The translations under genes and the position numbers were made by a program. This document shows positions 19,881 to 45,223 of a DNA stretch of 51,777 nt, piece after piece. The notes under the pieces were generated by a model. The model saw only the letters and a list, made by a program, of their open reading frames with translations, searched no databases and was not told the DNA's origin. Position 1 is the stretch's first letter. Every line of letters starts with the position of its first letter. Location: sequence record MZ501069. One strand, given 5' to 3'. The stretch is from Escherichia phage FritzSarasin.

Positions 19881-20507
19881 TTAATCATAGTGTGATGCAT
19901 TTATAACCAAAACAGATGAAGCGGTGTAAATACCAACAGGTCCAGGGGTTTGTGCAACCTGCCTAGAAAAAGAGTAGATCCCGTTACCATACGCGGCAGC
20001 TTGAGACTCAAAAATCATAAATCCACCTAAAGCCGGATTAGGTACAGAGTTTAACGCTGTTAGTGATGGCATTATTGCGCAAGGGTAGCCCAGGTTAACA
20101 TCAAACGCGATCCCGCTCACACCAACTTGCTTTGCATCAAGCGGCCTCATTTTTCCATGATAAACCATTTCACCATGAGCGTTATAAAACGCTATGCCGT
20201 GACTACCTGGAGGAGTCACCATGTTACTAAAAGCATAAACAATAACCTCCCCTTGATTATCAGATCTATCAATTCTTATTGCGTGCCTTCCACCATTGTT
20301 AAATTGCGTAAATGATATGTATGATTTAGCAGTCAATCTAACAAAGAAAAAACATACCCTATCAACAGGAATTGACGAAGTAAAAACGGTTCCGGTATTA
20401 GCAGATATTACGGCCCGATCAATTAGATTAACTGGAGTGAAATCTGGACTTAACCATAACGATCCGTCTGGTTTTTTTATGCTCATCCCGTACATTATCA
20501 CCCCCAA
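19881..20507 (-). CDS. hypothetical protein (cor-like operon, distal gene)
   Basis: 208 aa; start overlaps stop of upstream ORF by 10 nt. Confidence 0.55.
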   Translation of the reverse strand: MGVIMYGMSIKKPDGSLWLSPDFTPVNLIDRAVISANTGTVFTSSIPVDRVCFFFVRLTAKSYISFTQFNNGGRHAIRIDRSDNQGEVIVYAFSNMVTPPGSHGIAFYNAHGEMVYHGKMRPLDAKQVGVSGIAFDVNLGYPCAIMPSLTALNSVPNPALGGFMIFESQAAAYGNGIYSFSRQVAQTPGPVGIYTASSVLVINASHYD

Positions 20508-20776
20508 AAAGTATATATATATCTTGAATCAGATCCAGAAAGTCCACTCCATGTAACGGTGTCGCCACTTACTCCTAAGCTTGGTGCGCCAGGGTCGCCA
20601 CCGCGCCAGGAATTCATGCCAACATATATTGCTTTCAATGATTTACCTGGCGGCCTGTTTTGGTAAGTCTTGCTACCTGATGGCTGAGTGAATTTATCAA
20701 GAAAGAAAACAGGCGTTAAAAGTCCTGTAACTTCCCTCCCTCGATCGTCATATATTGCATAACCATATTGCGCCAT
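20498..20776 (-). CDS. hypothetical protein (cor-like operon, middle gene)
   Basis: 92 aa; start overlaps lipoprotein stop by 1 nt (TAATG). Confidence 0.5.
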   Translation of the reverse strand: MAQYGYAIYDDRGREVTGLLTPVFFLDKFTQPSGSKTYQNRPPGKSLKAIYVGMNSWRGGDPGAPSLGVSGDTVTWSGLSGSDSRYIYTFWG

Positions 20777-21051
20777 TAATTACACCTCAAATCAATAAAT
20801 TTACTTTCATTTTGCCAGCGGTTGATAAATTTAACTTCTTTATTGTCAACGCTCAACCTGTATTGCTTTTGGCTGAATCTGTTTTCGCGGACTGCATTAA
20901 TTTTGACCTCATGGAATCCGTTAACAGGGAATGTTTTAACGTTAAATTTTGCCGTGCAATCGATCTCTTTGAAGCCGCCAGTAGGCGACGCTGCGCATCC
21001 GGTCAGAGCGGCTACGGTGGCGATAACTGCGATTAATTTTTTCATCTTCAA
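20776..21051 (-). CDS. small lipoprotein, Cor-like superinfection-exclusion candidate
   Basis: 91 aa; signal peptide with lipobox LTGC; Cor-like by size, lipoprotein character and proximity to tail genes; homology not verified. Confidence 0.5.
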   Translation of the reverse strand: MKMKKLIAVIATVAALTGCAASPTGGFKEIDCTAKFNVKTFPVNGFHEVKINAVRENRFSQKQYRLSVDNKEVKFINRWQNESKFIDLRCN

Positions 21052-21100: not shown

Positions 21101-21120
21101 GTTTAGCAAAAAGTGCTACT
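21101..21120 (-). promoter_or_regulatory. conserved promoter-module motif, variant copy (leftward)
   Basis: Minus-strand reading AGTAGCACTTTTTGCTAAAC, about 21 nt, then TATAGT; lipoprotein ATG about 70 nt downstream. Confidence 0.5.
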
Positions 21121-30373: not shown

Positions 30374-30792
30374 TGGCTATAACTGATAAAGGCGATTATC
30401 TTGAGTTTTACGAAAGGGATCCAACCGACACGAGAAGGGAAGTTAATCACCAGATAGATAGTTTTCAGTGGTTGACTTATGCTCATCCTTATTTGCTGGC
30501 GTGGCATACGGTAAACGAGAATGAGAAGTCTAAAGTAACGGCGATGATTGATCAGCAGTCCGGCTTGGTTAAGGGAGTAAGCGATTTCATCATCCTGATT
30601 GGTTTAAACGGAAAATACCCCTTTGCAGCGATTGAGATCAAACGAGTGAATAAATCAGGCAAGGGGAAAGCATCACCAGTCAGCGATGAACAAAAGGCTT
30701 TTTTGCGTCGCGTTCGCAGCTTAGGAGGATTCGCTGCGGTAGCCTACGGATTCAATCAGTTTAAGTTGGCTATTGAATACATGCTTAAATAG
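30373..30792 (+). CDS. VRR-NUC domain nuclease
   Basis: 139 aa; core GVSDFIILIGLNGKYPFAAIEIKR fits the D...E.K pattern; start overlaps helicase stop. Confidence 0.55.
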   Translation: MAITDKGDYLEFYERDPTDTRREVNHQIDSFQWLTYAHPYLLAWHTVNENEKSKVTAMIDQQSGLVKGVSDFIILIGLNGKYPFAAIEIKRVNKSGKGKASPVSDEQKAFLRRVRSLGGFAAVAYGFNQFKLAIEYMLK

Positions 30793-30808
30793 CACTTTTT
30801 GTTAAAAC
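30788..30808 (+). promoter_or_regulatory. conserved promoter-module motif copy (rightward)
   Basis: AATAGCACTTTTTGTTAAAAC, inverted repeat GGCGCGATGGATTGCGCC, CATAAT; contains stop TAG of the upstream gene; Dam ATG 85 nt downstream. Confidence 0.6.
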
Positions 30809-30872
30809 TGGCGCGATGGATTGCGCCATAATTCAATAACACGAGATGGCTTTTAATAGCGGAGAAATGAAA

Positions 30873-31879: not shown

Positions 31880-31935
31880 GCCCGGCCTAGTGTCGGGCAT
31901 AATTATTTCAACGAAGCAAACATGAGGAAATAAAA

Positions 31936-33920: not shown

Positions 33921-34411
33921 TGAGCATCAAGAACAGGGTGGCGGCGGCGGCCTTTGGCGTTGCGGTTGCCTTGACTTCTCCACTTCTTGAAGAGATCGAA
34001 GGGGTAAGATACAAGCCATACAAAGATATTGCGGGAGTATGGACGGTTTGCGCAGGAATCACCGGACCCGATGTTATCCTGGGGAAAACGTACACTAAAA
34101 AAGAGTGTGATGATTTGTTGGCTAAGCATATCCAGGTTGCTAAAAAGGAAGTTGACAAGCAAGTTAAGGTTGACATTCCTGATAGTATGCGTGCAGCAAT
34201 GTACTCATTCACTTACAATGCAGGTGTGGGAGCTTTCAGAAATTCAACAATGCTGAAACTCATCAACCAGGGGAAATTAAAAGATGCTTGCGATCAGCTT
34301 TATCGTTGGACGTATTACCATAACCCCAAAACAGGAAAGCGCGAGAAGTCTAAAGGCTTACTTAACAGGCGCAAGGTCGAATACAAATATTGCACAATGG
34401 ATCTGAAATGA
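33920..34411 (+). CDS. endolysin (lysozyme-like, probable signal-anchor-release type)
   Basis: 163 aa; hydrophobic N-terminal segment [17 protein letters not shown] followed by a lysozyme-like catalytic region; lysis-cassette position. Confidence 0.8.
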
Positions 34412-34803
34412 TGAAGAAATTTTTACTTACACCAATCGCAATGGCGGTGATCTTGTCTGGATGTTCAAGCGTTACGCCACTGACCGGATTAATCGGCAGT
34501 AAGCCGGAAATCACAGCACAGGCTGGCGCGGAGAACGTGAGGCAGACAGTTGGCATTACAGCAAAGCAGGACGCCAGCACAAAACAGGAAACCACAATAA
34601 AGGAATCTGCGGTTGACAAGGTGGACACGTCCAGCAAGAAGGATTTCACAACATCAACCATTCAGGCCAATACCATCAAGGCAGACAAAATTCAGATCGT
34701 GCAGGGTAATAACGGCAGATGGTACGATCCAATAATCATATGCGTGGTTGTGTTAATTGTGCTGATTTGTCTTTACTGGAGAGAAAAGAAAAAGGAGGCT
34801 TAA
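34408..34803 (+). CDS. unimolecular spanin
   Basis: ATG 34408 overlaps endolysin stop; N-terminal lipoprotein signal with lipobox ILSGC and C-terminal transmembrane helix [16 protein letters not shown]. Confidence 0.75.
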
Positions 34804-35102: not shown

Positions 35103-35123
35103 GTTTTAACAAAAAATGCTATT
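35103..35123 (-). promoter_or_regulatory. conserved promoter-module motif copy (leftward)
   Basis: Minus-strand reading AATAGCATTTTTTGTTAAAAC + GCCCGGCCTAGTGTCGGG + TATAT; nearly identical to the inverted copy at 31859. Confidence 0.6.
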
Positions 35124-42109: not shown

Positions 42110-42167
42110 TGCTATCTCCTGAGCGGTTCGTTTCGATGTGTGTAATGTACCCGATCAGACGGCCTGA

Positions 42168-42188
42168 GTTTTAACAAAAAGTGCTATT
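42168..42188 (-). promoter_or_regulatory. conserved promoter-module motif copy (leftward)
   Basis: Minus-strand reading AATAGCACTTTTTGTTAAAAC, about 22 nt, TACATT; ATG about 80 nt downstream. Confidence 0.55.
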
Positions 42189-42742
42189 TGACGGTTAGCG
42201 CCAGGATTGTGATCGAAATAATCAAAAGTAATCATTCGTAATCAAATCAAGTCAAAATGATGATTGCCTTTGCAAATTTGATGAGAAAAGTAATCACGTT
42301 TAATCATTGGTTGCAGGGGAGATAGTGAAACCTTCCCCTCTTGCCTCACTTTTTTGCCTGGCTGTCAGTGGTTGTTGTCTTTTGTTCACCCCTGTTACCG
42401 ATTTCAGGCGGCGTGTTTCCGCGCGGTTTTCCGGTGTAGCGAAAACGGAAAAAACAAAGAAAATCCTTTATAATACATTGAAAATAAAGATTATTTATTT
42501 ATATATATCTATAATGTTTTCTTTTTGTTCTCACTGTTACAGTGCTTTTTGTTGGTTATGGTGTGGTTGTGTGTGGGCATATATGGATAGTTGCGCGCGC
42601 GGCGGATTGCATATGTATATATACTTTTTCCGGCGGATTGCGTTAACAGCGTGAACAGAAAAATAACAGCCGTGAAATCAATAACTTGCGCATGATTTTG
42701 TAGTTTTTTGATATTGGTAACGTTTTGAATACAACAAAAACA

Positions 42743-42770
42743 TTGACACGCACCAAATAGCTTTTATAAT
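42743..42770 (+). promoter_or_regulatory. consensus sigma70 promoter (TTGACA-N16-TATAAT)
   Basis: Perfect -35 and -10 hexamers about 30 nt upstream of ATG 42802. Confidence 0.65.
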
Positions 42771-42801
42771 GCGCCAACAGTCAACAACTGGAGGAAAGGA
42801 A

Positions 42802-43266
42802 ATGGAACAGAAGACCACTAAGGACTATTGCGATTGGCTTCGCGAGCTTGGTCGCCGCCTGGCTAGTGGCGATATTGAAGAGTATAAAATGTCACTAATT
42901 GACCTGGCCGGAATGTTAAGCGGTGACGACTGCTACAAGATCACGCGCAGTTCATCCTACAGCCGGACCATTATCAACCGCGTTCCAGAAGTAAGGGCCG
43001 CAGGTCGGGTAAGTATCAAGGTCGAGGAAACGGAAGATGATAAATTTTACGTTTTCCGCATGGTGCGCGAATCGAAAAGGAAAATCATCACACCCGAAGA
43101 ATTGCCAGCCATAAAGGCAAGGGCGATCAAAAAGTTTGCCGATCGCTTACTGGCAGCAATCCCGAACATCGTGGACCTGGAGGGTGATAAACTGGCTGGA
43201 GCTTGTGAGGGCGTAAGCCGCTACCAGGATATGATTCGCGAAATCATCAAAGAGGAGGAGCAATAA
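42802..43266 (+). CDS. hypothetical early protein
   Basis: 154 aa from ATG 42802 (RBS GGAGGAAAGG); track start 42769 lies inside the -10. Confidence 0.55.
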   Translation: MEQKTTKDYCDWLRELGRRLASGDIEEYKMSLIDLAGMLSGDDCYKITRSSSYSRTIINRVPEVRAAGRVSIKVEETEDDKFYVFRMVRESKRKIITPEELPAIKARAIKKFADRLLAAIPNIVDLEGDKLAGACEGVSRYQDMIREIIKEEEQ

Positions 43267-43526
43267 TGAAAAAGGCATTAATCGGCGTTTTGGCGGCAAT
43301 GACACTCCTGACCGGATGCGAAAAGGCATCAGAATCAACGGTTGTCGTAGGCGTGGAGTCAGATTTCAAAGTCGGTCGCCTGTTCACTGTTGACGGATGC
43401 ACAGCATACAGATTCTATGATAACGGTCGCGCGATCTATTACACCAATTGCAAAGGCGCAACGGATAGCACGTACAACAGCGGAAAGAACGTAATGCACC
43501 AGCAAGTCACAACAGATATTAAATAG
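43266..43526 (+). CDS. putative lipoprotein
   Basis: 86 aa; signal peptide with lipobox LLTGC; stop TAG embedded in the next motif copy. Confidence 0.6.
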   Translation: MKKALIGVLAAMTLLTGCEKASESTVVVGVESDFKVGRLFTVDGCTAYRFYDNGRAIYYTNCKGATDSTYNSGKNVMHQQVTTDIK

Positions 43527-43542
43527 CACTTTTTGTTAAAAC
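43522..43542 (+). promoter_or_regulatory. conserved promoter-module motif copy (rightward)
   Basis: AATAGCACTTTTTGTTAAAAC + hairpin GCCAGGCGCAAAGCCTGGC + CATAAT; ATG 77 nt downstream. Confidence 0.6.
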
Positions 43543-43598
43543 GCCAGGCGCAAAGCCTGGCATAATAGCCTCATCGAAACGAGATTGAGGAAACAAAA

Positions 43599-43985: not shown

Positions 43986-44005
43986 ATAGCACTTTTTGTT
44001 AAAAC
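43985..44005 (+). promoter_or_regulatory. conserved promoter-module motif copy (rightward)
   Basis: AATAGCACTTTTTGTTAAAAC then CCAGGCATAAT. Confidence 0.55.
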
Positions 44006-45054: not shown

Positions 45055-45207
45055 ATGGCTACCTGGATTTTGCTGATTCTTATGATTGATGGCGGCGTTG
45101 ACCATATCGAAATGAATAGCCAGCAATCTTGCATTGAGGCACGAGAACAGATCAAGAACGACAACAGGTTTTATGCGTACACTCACACGCTATGTATTAA
45201 GAAATAG
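45055..45207 (+). CDS. putative small membrane peptide (not in ORF track)
   Basis: 50-aa ORF with RBS GAGGTGAGAG; hydrophobic N-terminus; stop TAG embedded in the next motif. Confidence 0.35.
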   Translation: MATWILLILMIDGGVDHIEMNSQQSCIEAREQIKNDNRFYAYTHTLCIKK

Positions 45208-45223
45208 CACTTTTTGTTAAAAC
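45203..45223 (+). promoter_or_regulatory. conserved promoter-module motif copy (rightward)
   Basis: AATAGCACTTTTTGTTAAAAC + GGGGCCAGG TATAAT GGCC; ATG 74 nt downstream. Confidence 0.6.

What the first reader, a model, noticed from the sequence alone, without database searches (positions are those of the whole stretch)
43266..43526. A second lipoprotein encoded in the early region
An 86-aa protein with a signal peptide and lipobox (LLTGCEKAS), located right after the first gene behind the consensus early promoter. An early lipoprotein besides the Cor-like one could block a different receptor or protect against lysis inhibition, as described for some other phages.
Basis: inference. Interest (0 to 1): 0.4.

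Follow-up and report, generated by a model that had tools for sequence, protein, structure and literature searches.

The report
Early phage lipoprotein of unknown function
The gene is real and almost certainly encodes a small outer-membrane lipoprotein made early by a T1-like coliphage; it belongs to a large, uncharacterised phage family (DUF4884), and its variants do not track the phage's own receptor, so what it targets remains unknown.

Summary
Observation confirmed. ORF 43266-43526 (+) encodes 86 aa with a canonical lipoprotein signal (K2K3, hydrophobic core, lipobox L-T-G-C18, Glu at +2). It has a strong Shine-Dalgarno sequence, and its ATG overlaps the stop of the upstream DUF7174 gene. 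It is the second gene behind the only perfect sigma-70 consensus promoter in the window.

The window is a Warwickvirus (Drexlerviridae) genome, probably BASEL Bas04 FritzSarasin, whose receptor is BtuB. The protein belongs to DUF4884: at least 1229 clusters at 50% identity. The lipid cysteine is kept in 260 of 261 aligned members and a co-varying Cys45-Cys62 pair is present. Every context inspected was a phage or prophage early/accessory region.

A confident AF2 model (pLDDT 87) is a six-strand beta meander with no match in the PDB. There is no sequence relation to Cor, and no chain in the PDB copy matched, so no link to Llp or Rtp45.

The mature part is an exchangeable cassette. Tonnikala is 96-100% identical in the flanks, the receptor-binding locus and the tail fibre, yet only 47% identical in this protein. 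FhuA-using phages carry a 92-98% identical copy. It is therefore not the cognate blocker of the phage's own receptor.

An envelope-level exclusion or competition role against another target is plausible but untested.

The parts
42743..42770 (+). Sigma-70 consensus promoter (TTGACA, 16 nt, TATAAT) driving the two-gene operon
   Evidence: 12 of 12 matches. It is the only 12/12 site on either strand of the 51.8-kb window. It is 100% conserved in tonnikala and also present in MatMar.
42793..43266 (+). First gene of the operon: a DUF7174 protein (157 aa, no signal peptide, function unknown). Its stop codon overlaps the start of the lipoprotein gene.
   Evidence: Pfam PF23796 E 3.3e-51 and PHROG 4841. 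The same pairing occurs in Rtp (rtp1, then rtp3). The ATG at 42769 lies upstream of the predicted transcription start, so 42793, preceded by GGAGG, is the likely start.
43252..43260 (+). Shine-Dalgarno sequence GAGGAGGAG, 5 nt upstream of the ATG
   Evidence: Read directly from the sequence.
43266..43526 (+). Lipoprotein gene (86-aa precursor, DUF4884 family), stop codon included
   Evidence: ORF list. Pfam DUF4884 E 2e-5. PHROG 6360 E 1.2e-11. It is 100% identical to Poky gp64 and to the mar001J1 copy.
43266..43316 (+). Signal peptide (residues 1-17); the lipobox L-T-G-C is encoded at 43308-43319
   Evidence: The lipobox is invariant in the close homologues. The Cys is kept in 260 of 261 aligned family members, with LTG, LAG and LSG the commonest -3 to -1 triplets. 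NCBIfam lipoprotein models match only residues 1-25.
43317..43523 (+). Mature lipoprotein (69 aa, Cys18 to Lys86). The conserved core is residues 34-64 (FxVxxLFTVDGCTxYRFxDxGxxxYxTNCxG) with a Cys45-Cys62 pair. The N-terminal segment (19-33) and the C-terminal hairpin (65-86) are variable.
   Evidence: Column conservation. Cys45/Cys62 covariation: both present in 239 sequences, both absent in 21, one discordant. The AF2 model has pLDDT 86.8 and six beta strands.
43300..43516 (+). Allelic-replacement cassette: the only stretch where the window and phage tonnikala diverge in this region
   Evidence: In 50-nt windows, identity is 0.92-1.00 in the flanks and 0.32-0.76 inside the cassette. Fulano1 is a chimera of allele A (N-terminal part) and allele B (C-terminal part).
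43543..43561 (+). GC-rich hairpin (GCCAGGC-GCAAA-GCCTGGC) just after the gene, with no following T-run. It lies in the spacer of the next promoter-like motif (43525-43567).
   Evidence: RNA fold -16.4 kcal/mol, z = -3.2. It was not reported by the terminator scan.

Best explanation
The gene encodes a small lipoprotein. It is probably transcribed by host RNA polymerase immediately after infection and translated in tandem with the upstream DUF7174 gene. I infer the following steps. It is exported by Sec, lipidated at Cys18, and cleaved by signal peptidase II. Because residue +2 is Glu and not Asp, the Lol pathway should deliver it to the inner leaflet of the outer membrane. There, a 69-residue disulfide-stabilised beta-meander domain would face the periplasm.

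The most likely role is a phage-encoded envelope factor used in competition, that is, exclusion of other phages or of colicin-like agents. It would bind the periplasmic side of an outer-membrane or periplasmic host component that is NOT the phage's own terminal receptor. The conserved central strands would form the scaffold or a common contact surface. The exchangeable N-terminal segment and C-terminal hairpin would set specificity.

What is shown: the gene, the signal and lipobox, family membership, phage-only contexts, allele swapping, and the lack of linkage to the adsorption genes. What is inferred: lipidation, sorting, timing, and the exclusion function and its target.

Confidence by layer: real lipoprotein gene about 0.9; outer-membrane periplasmic location about 0.75; envelope-level exclusion or competition function about 0.35.
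For: Gene and signal.

Promoter uniqueness.

Family size and cysteine covariation: 1229 clusters at E<=1e-3, and 138 of the top 150 representatives have a lipobox. Cys45/Cys62 are present together or absent together in 260 of 261 sequences.

Every genomic context inspected is a phage or prophage early/accessory region:
- Rtp rtp1-rtp3.
- Serratia MTx and Pseudomonas Dolphis.
- A Pantoea lambdoid prophage, in the nin region between P and NinH.
- A Pseudomonas prophage.
- Jumbo-phage contigs, next to rIIB and Band_7 genes.

All named hosts are diderm bacteria.

Size, lipid anchor, disulfide and all-beta build resemble the known exclusion lipoproteins Llp and Rtp45 as described in PMC12685063.

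Cassette-like allele exchange is confined to the mature part, with old alleles (dS > 1.4, dN/dS 0.23-0.38) and natural chimeras. This fits a specificity determinant under frequency-dependent selection.

In the same genomes the Cor-type lipoprotein changes with the receptor-binding locus and receptor, whereas this one does not.
Against: There is no experimental datum for any DUF4884 member.

No sequence or fold similarity to the known exclusion proteins was found: PHROG Cor gave no hit; the PDB profile search found nothing; Foldseek's best E-values were 0.57 and 1.9; hhalign against the window's Cor-like protein gave 0.2% probability.

Known exclusion lipoproteins (Llp, Cor, Rtp45) sit next to the receptor-binding gene. 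This gene lies about 22 kb away and is unlinked to it.

The core is strongly conserved across phages of Enterobacteria, Pseudomonas, a Myxococcales MAG and, per Pfam's description recalled from memory, Bacteroides. That fits a conserved host machine as target at least as well as it fits a variable receptor.

The gene is absent from T1 and is deleted or truncated in some relatives, so it is dispensable.

Early timing is inferred, not measured.
Confidence: 0.4

Rival explanations
1. Host-takeover or anti-defence factor. The lipoprotein binds and inhibits (or hijacks) a conserved envelope machine or sensor, such as Tol-Pal, Lpt, Bam, Lol, an envelope-stress sensor, or a periplasmic or outer-membrane defence component. 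This would keep the infected envelope stable or silence an envelope-triggered response. It would not be there to exclude competitors.
For: The 31-residue core, including the polar residues R49, D52, T60, N61 and K74, is almost invariant across phages of very different diderm hosts. That is easier to explain with a conserved target. The gene sits among early accessory genes such as PNK and an Stp-like gene in Rtp, the nin region in a lambdoid prophage, and rIIB and Band_7 neighbours in jumbo phages. In TLS-like phages the same position after DUF7174 holds small transmembrane proteins, so this site collects envelope-directed accessory genes.
Against: No target is identifiable. There are no PADLOC, NCBIfam or Pfam functional matches. 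The sharp allele replacement with divergent edge strands suggests a variable partner, although the conserved residues may be purely structural in so small a fold.
Confidence: 0.25
2. The protein acts in the phage's own cycle at the envelope. For example, it could protect the infected cell from lysis-from-without or premature lysis, tune lysis timing, or reduce loss of progeny on cell debris by a route other than receptor masking.
For: Jumbo-phage copies lie beside rIIB-like and Band_7 genes. The product is predicted to be an outer-membrane lipoprotein.
Against: The gene is far from the lysis cassette (holin, endolysin and u-spanin lie at about 33.6-34.8 kb) and is transcribed from a different, host-type promoter. 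Lysis inhibition has not, to my knowledge, been described for T1-like phages. The allele diversity has no obvious explanation under this model.
Confidence: 0.12
3. A second, redundant blocker of the phage's own terminal receptor (BtuB if the window is Bas04), working like Cor or Llp.
For: It is a small periplasmic lipoprotein with a disulfide, like Llp and Rtp45. It appears to be expressed early.
Against: The same allele (92-98% identity) occurs in the FhuA phages PeterMerian and JakobBernoulli, whose receptor-binding proteins are at most 26% identical to the window's. The 47% allele occurs in tonnikala, whose receptor-binding/Cor cassette is 99.2% identical to the window's. Homologues at 52-55% identity occur in the LptD phages Rtp and JeanPiccard. 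All combinations of allele and cassette exist.
Confidence: 0.05
4. Not a functional lipoprotein: a chance ORF, or a soluble periplasmic protein cleaved by signal peptidase I.
For: No lipoprotein-prediction software or experiment was available. The Pfam score of 24.7 bits is below the gathering cut-off of 30.
Against: The Cys at +1 is kept in 260 of 261 homologues, together with a canonical -3 to -1 lipobox. The alleles are under purifying selection. There is a strong Shine-Dalgarno sequence, and a confident fold prediction.
Confidence: 0.03

Closest known systems
T5 Llp (FhuA-binding superinfection-exclusion lipoprotein; PDB 8A60 as cited in PMC13164509)
   Same: It is a small early-expressed phage lipoprotein with a periplasmic domain anchored to the outer membrane and stabilised by a disulfide.
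   Different: The PDB sequence-profile search and two Foldseek searches gave no match to any chain. Llp is encoded next to the receptor-binding gene and is specific for the phage's own receptor. This gene is about 22 kb from the receptor-binding locus, and its alleles are unlinked to it.
Cor (T1, phi80, N15) and the Cor-like lipoprotein of this window (20776-21045, -)
   Same: Both are small lipoproteins with an LTGC lipobox encoded in the same genome. Both signal peptides hit the same generic profiles (PHROG 902).
   Different: The finding does not match PHROG 1119 or NCBIfam lamb_exclu_cor. hhalign of the mature parts gives 0.2% probability. Cor varies with the receptor-binding locus, and this protein does not. 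Cor is driven by the phage-specific promoter-like motif, while this gene has a consensus sigma-70 promoter.
Rtp45 / SE_Oeko (LptD-binding exclusion lipoproteins; PDB 9RPS; PMC12685063)
   Same: It is a small (about 6-7 kDa) beta-rich periplasmic lipoprotein with one disulfide in a T1-like phage. A beta-hairpin is the element that reaches into the target.
   Different: It is a different gene. Rtp carries both Rtp45 (next to the receptor-binding gene rtp44) and the homologue of this protein, rtp3, at the left end of its genome. No sequence or fold match to any PDB chain was found.
Pfam DUF4884 (PF16225) / PHROG 6360
   Same: This is the family the protein belongs to. All 120 listed homologues carry PF16225. 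Some GenBank records already label the orthologue 'DUF4884 domain-containing protein'.
   Different: The family has no known function or solved structure. The window's protein scores below Pfam's gathering cut-off (24.7 against 30 bits). The Pfam model covers only 49 positions of the core.
T4 Spackle and Imm (early periplasmic or membrane exclusion proteins)
   Same: They are early envelope-located products of a virulent phage that act on superinfecting phages independently of receptor masking.
   Different: They are not lipoproteins, and no PDB match was found. The analogy is functional only and comes from general knowledge.

Membership tests
Bacterial lipoprotein (Lgt/LspA substrate) | N-terminal signal peptide with a positive n-region, a hydrophobic h-region and the lipobox [LVI][ASTVI][GAS]C | tested here: met
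   The sequence is M-KK-ALIGVLAAMTLL-TG-C18. The Cys is conserved in 260 of 261 homologues, with LTG, LAG and LSG the commonest triplets at -3 to -1. NCBIfam lipoprotein models align only to residues 1-25.
Bacterial lipoprotein (Lgt/LspA substrate) | Actual diacylglyceryl modification and cleavage by signal peptidase II | not testable with these tools
   This needs palmitate labelling, globomycin treatment or mass spectrometry.
Outer-membrane (Lol-sorted) lipoprotein of Enterobacteria | No Asp at position +2 (the inner-membrane retention signal) | tested here: met
   Residue +2 is Glu. Allele B has Lys, MatMar has Asn and Rtp3 has Lys. Asp occurs in only 12 of 261 family members. The sorting rule itself is established knowledge for E. 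coli.
Pfam DUF4884 (PF16225) | Match to the family HMM at or above the gathering score (30 bits) | tested here: inconclusive
   24.7 bits, E 2e-5, covering residues 32-60. This is below the cut-off.
Pfam DUF4884 (PF16225) | Continuous homology to accepted family members | tested here: met
   All hits carry a precomputed PF16225 domain. The best BFVD structural neighbours are a DUF4884 protein and a 'Lipoprotein' of uncultured phages. The core motif LFTVDGCTxYRF is shared.
Cor superinfection-exclusion lipoprotein (PHROG 1119 / NCBIfam NF047972) | Sequence match to the family profile | tested here: not met
   No hit for the finding, whereas the window's 20776-21045 protein does hit. hhalign gives 0.2% probability.
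Receptor-cognate exclusion lipoproteins (Llp, Cor, Rtp45) | Gene adjacent to the receptor-binding gene and co-varying with it and with the terminal receptor | tested here: not met
   The gene lies about 22 kb from the receptor-binding locus. Allele A is found with BtuB-type and FhuA-type loci, and alleles A, B and C are all found with the same locus.
Receptor-cognate exclusion lipoproteins (Llp, Rtp45) | Sequence or fold similarity to the solved structures (8A60, 9RPS) | tested here: not met
   The PDB profile search gave only one chance hit, at E 0.2. Foldseek with the pLDDT-87 model gave a best E of 1.9 and TM below 0.45. Caveat: I did not verify separately that both entries are in the library copies.
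Superinfection exclusion (functional class) | Expression reduces adsorption or DNA entry of a superinfecting phage | not testable with these tools
   No experiment on any family member was found in the literature.
Spanin (o-spanin or u-spanin) | Lipoprotein encoded in or next to the lysis cassette, with a C-terminal transmembrane domain (u-spanin) or an embedded or adjacent i-spanin partner | tested here: not met
   The lysis genes lie at about 33.6-34.8 kb and have their own u-spanin-like lipoprotein, 34411-34803. The finding has no C-terminal hydrophobic segment.

The most novel reading that the evidence does not exclude
DUF4884 proteins are a widespread, structurally new class of phage early outer-membrane lipoproteins that provide a receptor-independent exclusion system which can be re-specified by swapping alleles. 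A conserved beta-sheet core would dock onto a conserved periplasmic or outer-membrane machine. Interchangeable edge strands would decide which competitor (phage entry apparatus or bacteriocin import route) is blocked. Phages would then re-assort exclusion specificity independently of their own host range.
Probability: 0.2. Interest if true: 0.7.

Novelty: new variant of a known kind. Interest (0 to 1): 0.42.

Why it matters
Small phage lipoproteins such as Llp, Cor and Rtp45 are the best-understood way in which virulent phages close the door behind them. All known ones are tied to the phage's own receptor.

This family is much larger: over 1200 clusters at 50% identity, in siphophages, myophages, jumbo phages and prophages of many diderm hosts. 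It has a fold with no solved relative and is genetically uncoupled from the adsorption module.

If it excludes competitors or manipulates a conserved envelope machine, it would be a new and common layer of phage-phage or phage-host interaction. It could also be a useful probe or inhibitor of an outer-membrane process.

It is readily testable. The window phage (probably BASEL Bas04) and tonnikala differ locally almost only in the mature part of this gene: the 2-kb region around it, the receptor-binding/Cor cassette and the tail-fibre gene are 96-100% identical. BASEL lists tonnikala at 98% identity over 97% of the genome, so the pair is near-isogenic rather than isogenic. If the protein turns out to have no phenotype, it is just one more accessory ORF.

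Tried and rejected
1. Sequence links to known structures and families gave no informative match. I tried a PDB profile search, Pfam, PHROGs, NCBIfam and PADLOC, and hhalign against the Cor-like protein. The only hits were DUF4884, PHROGs of unknown function, and signal-peptide-only matches.

2. Fold searches found nothing. The first AF2 model (17 sequences, signal peptide included) was mediocre (pLDDT 65) and gave no PDB hits. A second model of the mature domain with 104 sequences was confident (pLDDT 86.8) but still matched nothing in the PDB. In BFVD only members of the same family matched.

3. I looked for a conserved gene partner. DUF7174 is adjacent only in Drexlerviridae and re-assorts independently: JakobBernoulli has a 39%-identical DUF7174 with a 92%-identical lipoprotein. 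There is no DUF7174 next to the gene in Serratia MTx or Pseudomonas Dolphis. I rejected the idea of an obligatory two-protein system.

4. I tested linkage to the receptor-binding/Cor cassette, to the lateral tail fibre and to the published receptors. None was found.

5. The genome-contig scan with a broad alignment failed because no stretch was conserved enough. A narrower pattern found only 5 loci; the one I inspected (L010) was prophage-like. The bacterial distribution is therefore undersampled.

6. The literature held no functional data: DUF4884, Drexlerviridae exclusion lipoproteins, and Bas04.

7. The hairpin after the gene lacks a T-run and was not called a terminator, so I rejected it as a canonical terminator.

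8. I considered distant Cor homology, because PHROG 902 and a family profile touch both proteins. I rejected it: the overlap is confined to the signal peptide and lipobox, and hhalign found no relation between the mature domains.
Full report
**What the window is.** The region around the finding is 98-99% identical to Warwickvirus phages (Drexlerviridae, Tempevirinae) such as Poky, vB_EcoS-95 and JLBYU26, and the window is collinear with Poky. It is 51,777 bp long with 44.8% G+C. That matches the entry for BASEL phage Bas04 FritzSarasin (MZ501069): 51,777 bp, GC 0.448, closest relative tonnikala, terminal receptor BtuB (S5 table of PMC8594841). That accession is missing from the searchable phage collection. 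I therefore infer, but cannot prove, that the window is Bas04.

**Check of the observation.** The ORF 43266..43526 (+) encodes 86 residues: MKKALIGVLAAMTLLTGC|EKASESTVVVGVESDFKVGRLFTVDGCTAYRFYDNGRAIYYTNCKGATDSTYNSGKNVMHQQVTTDIK.
- It has two lysines in the n-region, a 12-residue hydrophobic core, the lipobox L-T-G-C18, and Glu at +2.
- A GAGGAGGAG Shine-Dalgarno sequence lies 5 nt upstream, and the ATG overlaps the TAA of the preceding gene.
- The promoter at 42743-42770 is TTGACA-16-TATAAT. My scan of both strands shows it is the only 12/12 consensus site in the genome; only two other sites reach 11/12.
- The first gene behind it is a DUF7174 protein (ATG 42793; Pfam E 3e-51). The lipoprotein gene is the second and last gene of this short unit.
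- After the stop codon come a stable hairpin without a T-run (43543-43561, -16.4 kcal/mol, z -3.2) and the promoter-like motif of the next unit.
It sits beside the two proteins of the receptor-binding cassette (PHROGs 557 and 425).
- A rule-based scan finds one further lipoprotein candidate, the u-spanin-like protein of the lysis cassette (34411-34803). The finding is therefore one of three predicted lipoproteins, not two.

**It is a real, conserved gene.**
- Close homologues keep the lipobox LTGC and an invariant core, RLFTVDGCTAYRF...YYTNC.G.
- An exhaustive HMMER search of 1.84 billion representative proteins finds 1229 clusters at E<=1e-3 and 236 at E<=1e-10. Almost all are 76-120 aa long, and 138 of the top 150 have a lipobox.
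- In a 261-sequence alignment the lipid cysteine is present in 260 sequences. Cys45 and Cys62 are both present in 239, both absent in 21, and discordant in one, which is a deletion variant. A second pair (positions 72 and 76, motif CGKNC) is present together in 97 and absent together in 157.
- This covariation is good evidence for a Cys45-Cys62 disulfide, and hence for an oxidising, periplasmic location.
- dN/dS between alleles is 0.23-0.38.

**Family and structure.**
- The protein matches Pfam DUF4884 at E 2e-5, but at 24.7 bits it is below the 30-bit gathering score. It matches PHROG 6360, of unknown function, at 1.2e-11.
- All listed homologues carry PF16225, and some GenBank records already call the orthologue 'DUF4884 domain-containing protein'.
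- Only two papers in the library mention DUF4884, and neither is about it (the term occurs once in each, outside title and abstract; I did not open them).
- AF2 on the mature domain with a 104-sequence alignment gives a confident model (pLDDT 86.8, pTM 0.61). It has six consecutive beta strands, that is, a beta meander.
- Foldseek against the PDB finds nothing (best E 1.9, TM below 0.45). The PDB sequence-profile search also finds nothing. In BFVD only members of the same family appear.
- There is therefore no detectable relation to any solved structure, which should include Llp, Rtp45 and Spackle.
- hhalign against the mature Cor-like protein of this window gives 0.2% probability. The faint cross-hits between the two proteins are confined to the signal peptide.

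**Where the family lives.** In the phage collection, 118 records hold a homologue: Warwickvirus, Hanrivervirus, Rtp and Guelphvirus/Veterinaerplatzvirus, plus Serratia and Erwinia myophages, Pantoea AAS23 and Pseudomonas Dolphis. T1 itself has none. Contexts:
- In Rtp the gene is rtp3, behind rtp1 (DUF7174) at the extreme left of the genome, followed by PNK and an Stp-like gene.
- In a Pantoea chromosome it sits in the nin region of a lambdoid prophage, between P and NinH.
- In Pseudomonas it sits in a prophage early region.
- In jumbo-phage contigs it is close to rIIB-like and Band_7 genes.
- There is no conserved neighbour outside Drexlerviridae. Even within the family, DUF7174 and the lipoprotein re-assort independently.
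- In TLS-like phages the position after DUF7174 holds small transmembrane proteins instead.

The gene is thus a phage accessory gene of lytic-cycle early regions, and it probably acts on its own.

**The most informative result: allele swapping, unlinked to adsorption.**
- The window and tonnikala are 92-100% identical in every 50-nt window of a 2-kb region, except 43300-43516. There identity falls to 32-76%.
- That stretch is exactly the mature part of the lipoprotein. The signal-peptide codons differ at only 4 of 54 positions. The proteins are 47% identical.
- A third allele (MatMar type, 43%) exists. Fulano1 is a natural chimera with an allele-A N-terminal part and an allele-B C-terminal hairpin.
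- dS between alleles exceeds 1.4. These are therefore old lineages exchanged by recombination, not fast in-place evolution.
- The conserved part is strands 2-4. The variable parts are the N-terminal segment and the C-terminal hairpin.
- The receptor-binding/Cor cassette of the window is 99.2% identical to tonnikala (allele B), 98-99% to atuna, tiwna and mar001J1 (allele A), and 95% to MatMar (allele C). Phages with an 86%-identical cassette carry either allele A (vB_EcoS-95, JLBYU26) or allele B (JLBYU10, BEK12A).
- The lateral tail fibre is 99.9% identical to tonnikala and 99.1% to mar001J1.
- PeterMerian and JakobBernoulli use FhuA. Their receptor-binding loci differ in architecture, their receptor-binding proteins are at most 26% identical, and their Cor proteins resemble the window's only in the signal peptide. 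Yet their early lipoproteins are 97.7% and 91.9% identical to the window's.
- Rtp (for which PMC12685063 shows Rtp45 binding LptDE) and JeanPiccard (terminal receptor LptD in the BASEL table) carry 52-55% homologues.
- So in the same set of genomes the Cor-type lipoprotein tracks the receptor and the DUF4884 lipoprotein does not.

**Mechanism.**
- Shown: the gene, its signals, family membership, phage-only contexts, the cysteine covariation, and the allele cassette with its lack of linkage.
- Inferred from established rules: Sec export, Lgt/LspA processing, and Lol sorting to the outer membrane (no Asp at +2). Also inferred: early transcription by host polymerase from the consensus promoter.
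- Best guess, about 0.35: an envelope-level competition or exclusion factor whose target is not the phage's own receptor. The variable edge strands would set specificity.
- Nearly as good, about 0.25: an inhibitor or hijacker of a conserved envelope machine or sensor. The near-invariant polar core across very different hosts favours this.
- Less likely: a role in the phage's own lysis or timing (about 0.12), a redundant blocker of the phage's own receptor (about 0.05), or not a lipoprotein at all (about 0.03).

**Comparison with known systems.** In build and presumed location it works like Llp, Cor and Rtp45. It fails every testable membership criterion of those families: profile match, fold match, adjacency to the receptor-binding gene, and co-variation with the receptor. 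It is a member of DUF4884, a catalogued but uncharacterised family.

**Novelty and verdict.** The gene and its family label are already in the databases, so the bare observation is not new. Three points appear not to have been described in the searchable literature:
- The family is a very large, phage-borne group of lipoproteins with a fold that has no solved relative.
- It behaves as an exchangeable cassette in otherwise near-identical genomes.
- It is uncoupled from the adsorption module.

I rate it a new variant of a known kind (small phage early lipoproteins) and of moderate interest. It is worth a simple expression and plating screen, for which the window phage and tonnikala offer a near-isogenic natural comparison.

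Noticed in passing
window: 18 sites, e.g. 43525-43541 (+), 43988-44004 (+), 45206-45222 (+), 42169-42185 (-), 21101-21117 (-), 30791-30807 (+): The 17-mer AGCACTTTTTGTTAAAA occurs 18 times with at most 2 mismatches, against 0.04 expected by chance. Most copies are followed about 18-19 nt later by a TATAAT-like hexamer and point towards the downstream genes. One precedes the Cor-like gene and one follows the finding's stop codon directly. This looks like a phage-specific promoter class, distinct from the single consensus sigma-70 promoter of the finding's operon. T1 has 9 copies.
   Followed up: partly
window 43543-43561, 30809-30828, 31880-31898, and the sites at 35120 (-) and 37956 (-): Several of these promoter-like motifs carry a GC-rich hairpin in the spacer between the conserved 17-mer and the -10-like hexamer. 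The one at 43543-43561 folds at -16.4 kcal/mol (z -3.2). There is no T-run, so they are not canonical terminators. They may be combined 3'-end and promoter modules.
   Followed up: partly
whole window: Length (51,777 bp), G+C (0.448), genus and nearest relative all match BASEL phage Bas04 FritzSarasin (MZ501069), whose terminal receptor is BtuB. That accession is absent from the searchable phage collection.
   Followed up: partly
window 34411-34803 (+): A third predicted lipoprotein ([18 protein letters not shown]...) lies at the end of the holin-endolysin cassette. It gives a weak NCBIfam spanin2 match, which fits a T1 gp11-type unimolecular spanin.
   Followed up: partly
window 19881-21051 (-): The receptor-binding cassette has three minus-strand genes: the Cor-like lipoprotein, PHROG 557 and PHROG 425. 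In the FhuA phages PeterMerian and JakobBernoulli the two larger genes are on the plus strand and are unrelated in sequence. The Cor-like protein here matches the Cor profiles only weakly (PHROG E 1e-7; NCBIfam 17.9 bits against a cut-off of 31).
   Followed up: partly
window 42110-42740: A gene-poor, roughly 600-bp divergent region lies between the leftward and rightward transcription units. It has AT-rich repeats, a palindrome (42495-42514) and two exact copies of CGGCGGATTGC (42600 and 42631). Poky annotates a 115-aa TTG-start ORF here (gp62), which looks doubtful. The region may be regulatory or replication-related.
   Followed up: no
window 42769 versus 42793: Some relatives (for example Poky gp63) annotate the DUF7174 gene from the upstream ATG. 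That ATG lies inside or upstream of the -10 element of the consensus promoter. The ATG at 42793, preceded by GGAGG, is the more plausible start.
   Followed up: no
P0029 (metagenomic contigs up to 51 kb); phage aalborv MN850591 36116-36319: Natural degenerate copies exist. One is a 59-aa in-frame deletion joining the lipobox Cys directly to TAYRF, seen on 5 contigs. The other, in aalborv, is an unannotated copy that lacks the first 18 codons. The gene is therefore dispensable in some relatives.
   Followed up: no
L015 (U136B) 1043-1493; L016 (Samwise) 2253-2387: In TLS-like and Klebsiella Drexlerviridae, the position downstream of DUF7174 holds very small single-pass membrane proteins instead of the lipoprotein. 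This suggests a hot spot for envelope-directed accessory genes.
   Followed up: partly
L021 5838-7240; L023 7001-9329: In two unrelated large phage contigs the DUF4884 gene lies within about 1.3 kb of a Band_7 (SPFH) gene. In one of them it is next to rIIB-like genes and a prepilin-type N-terminal (N_methyl) protein.
   Followed up: no
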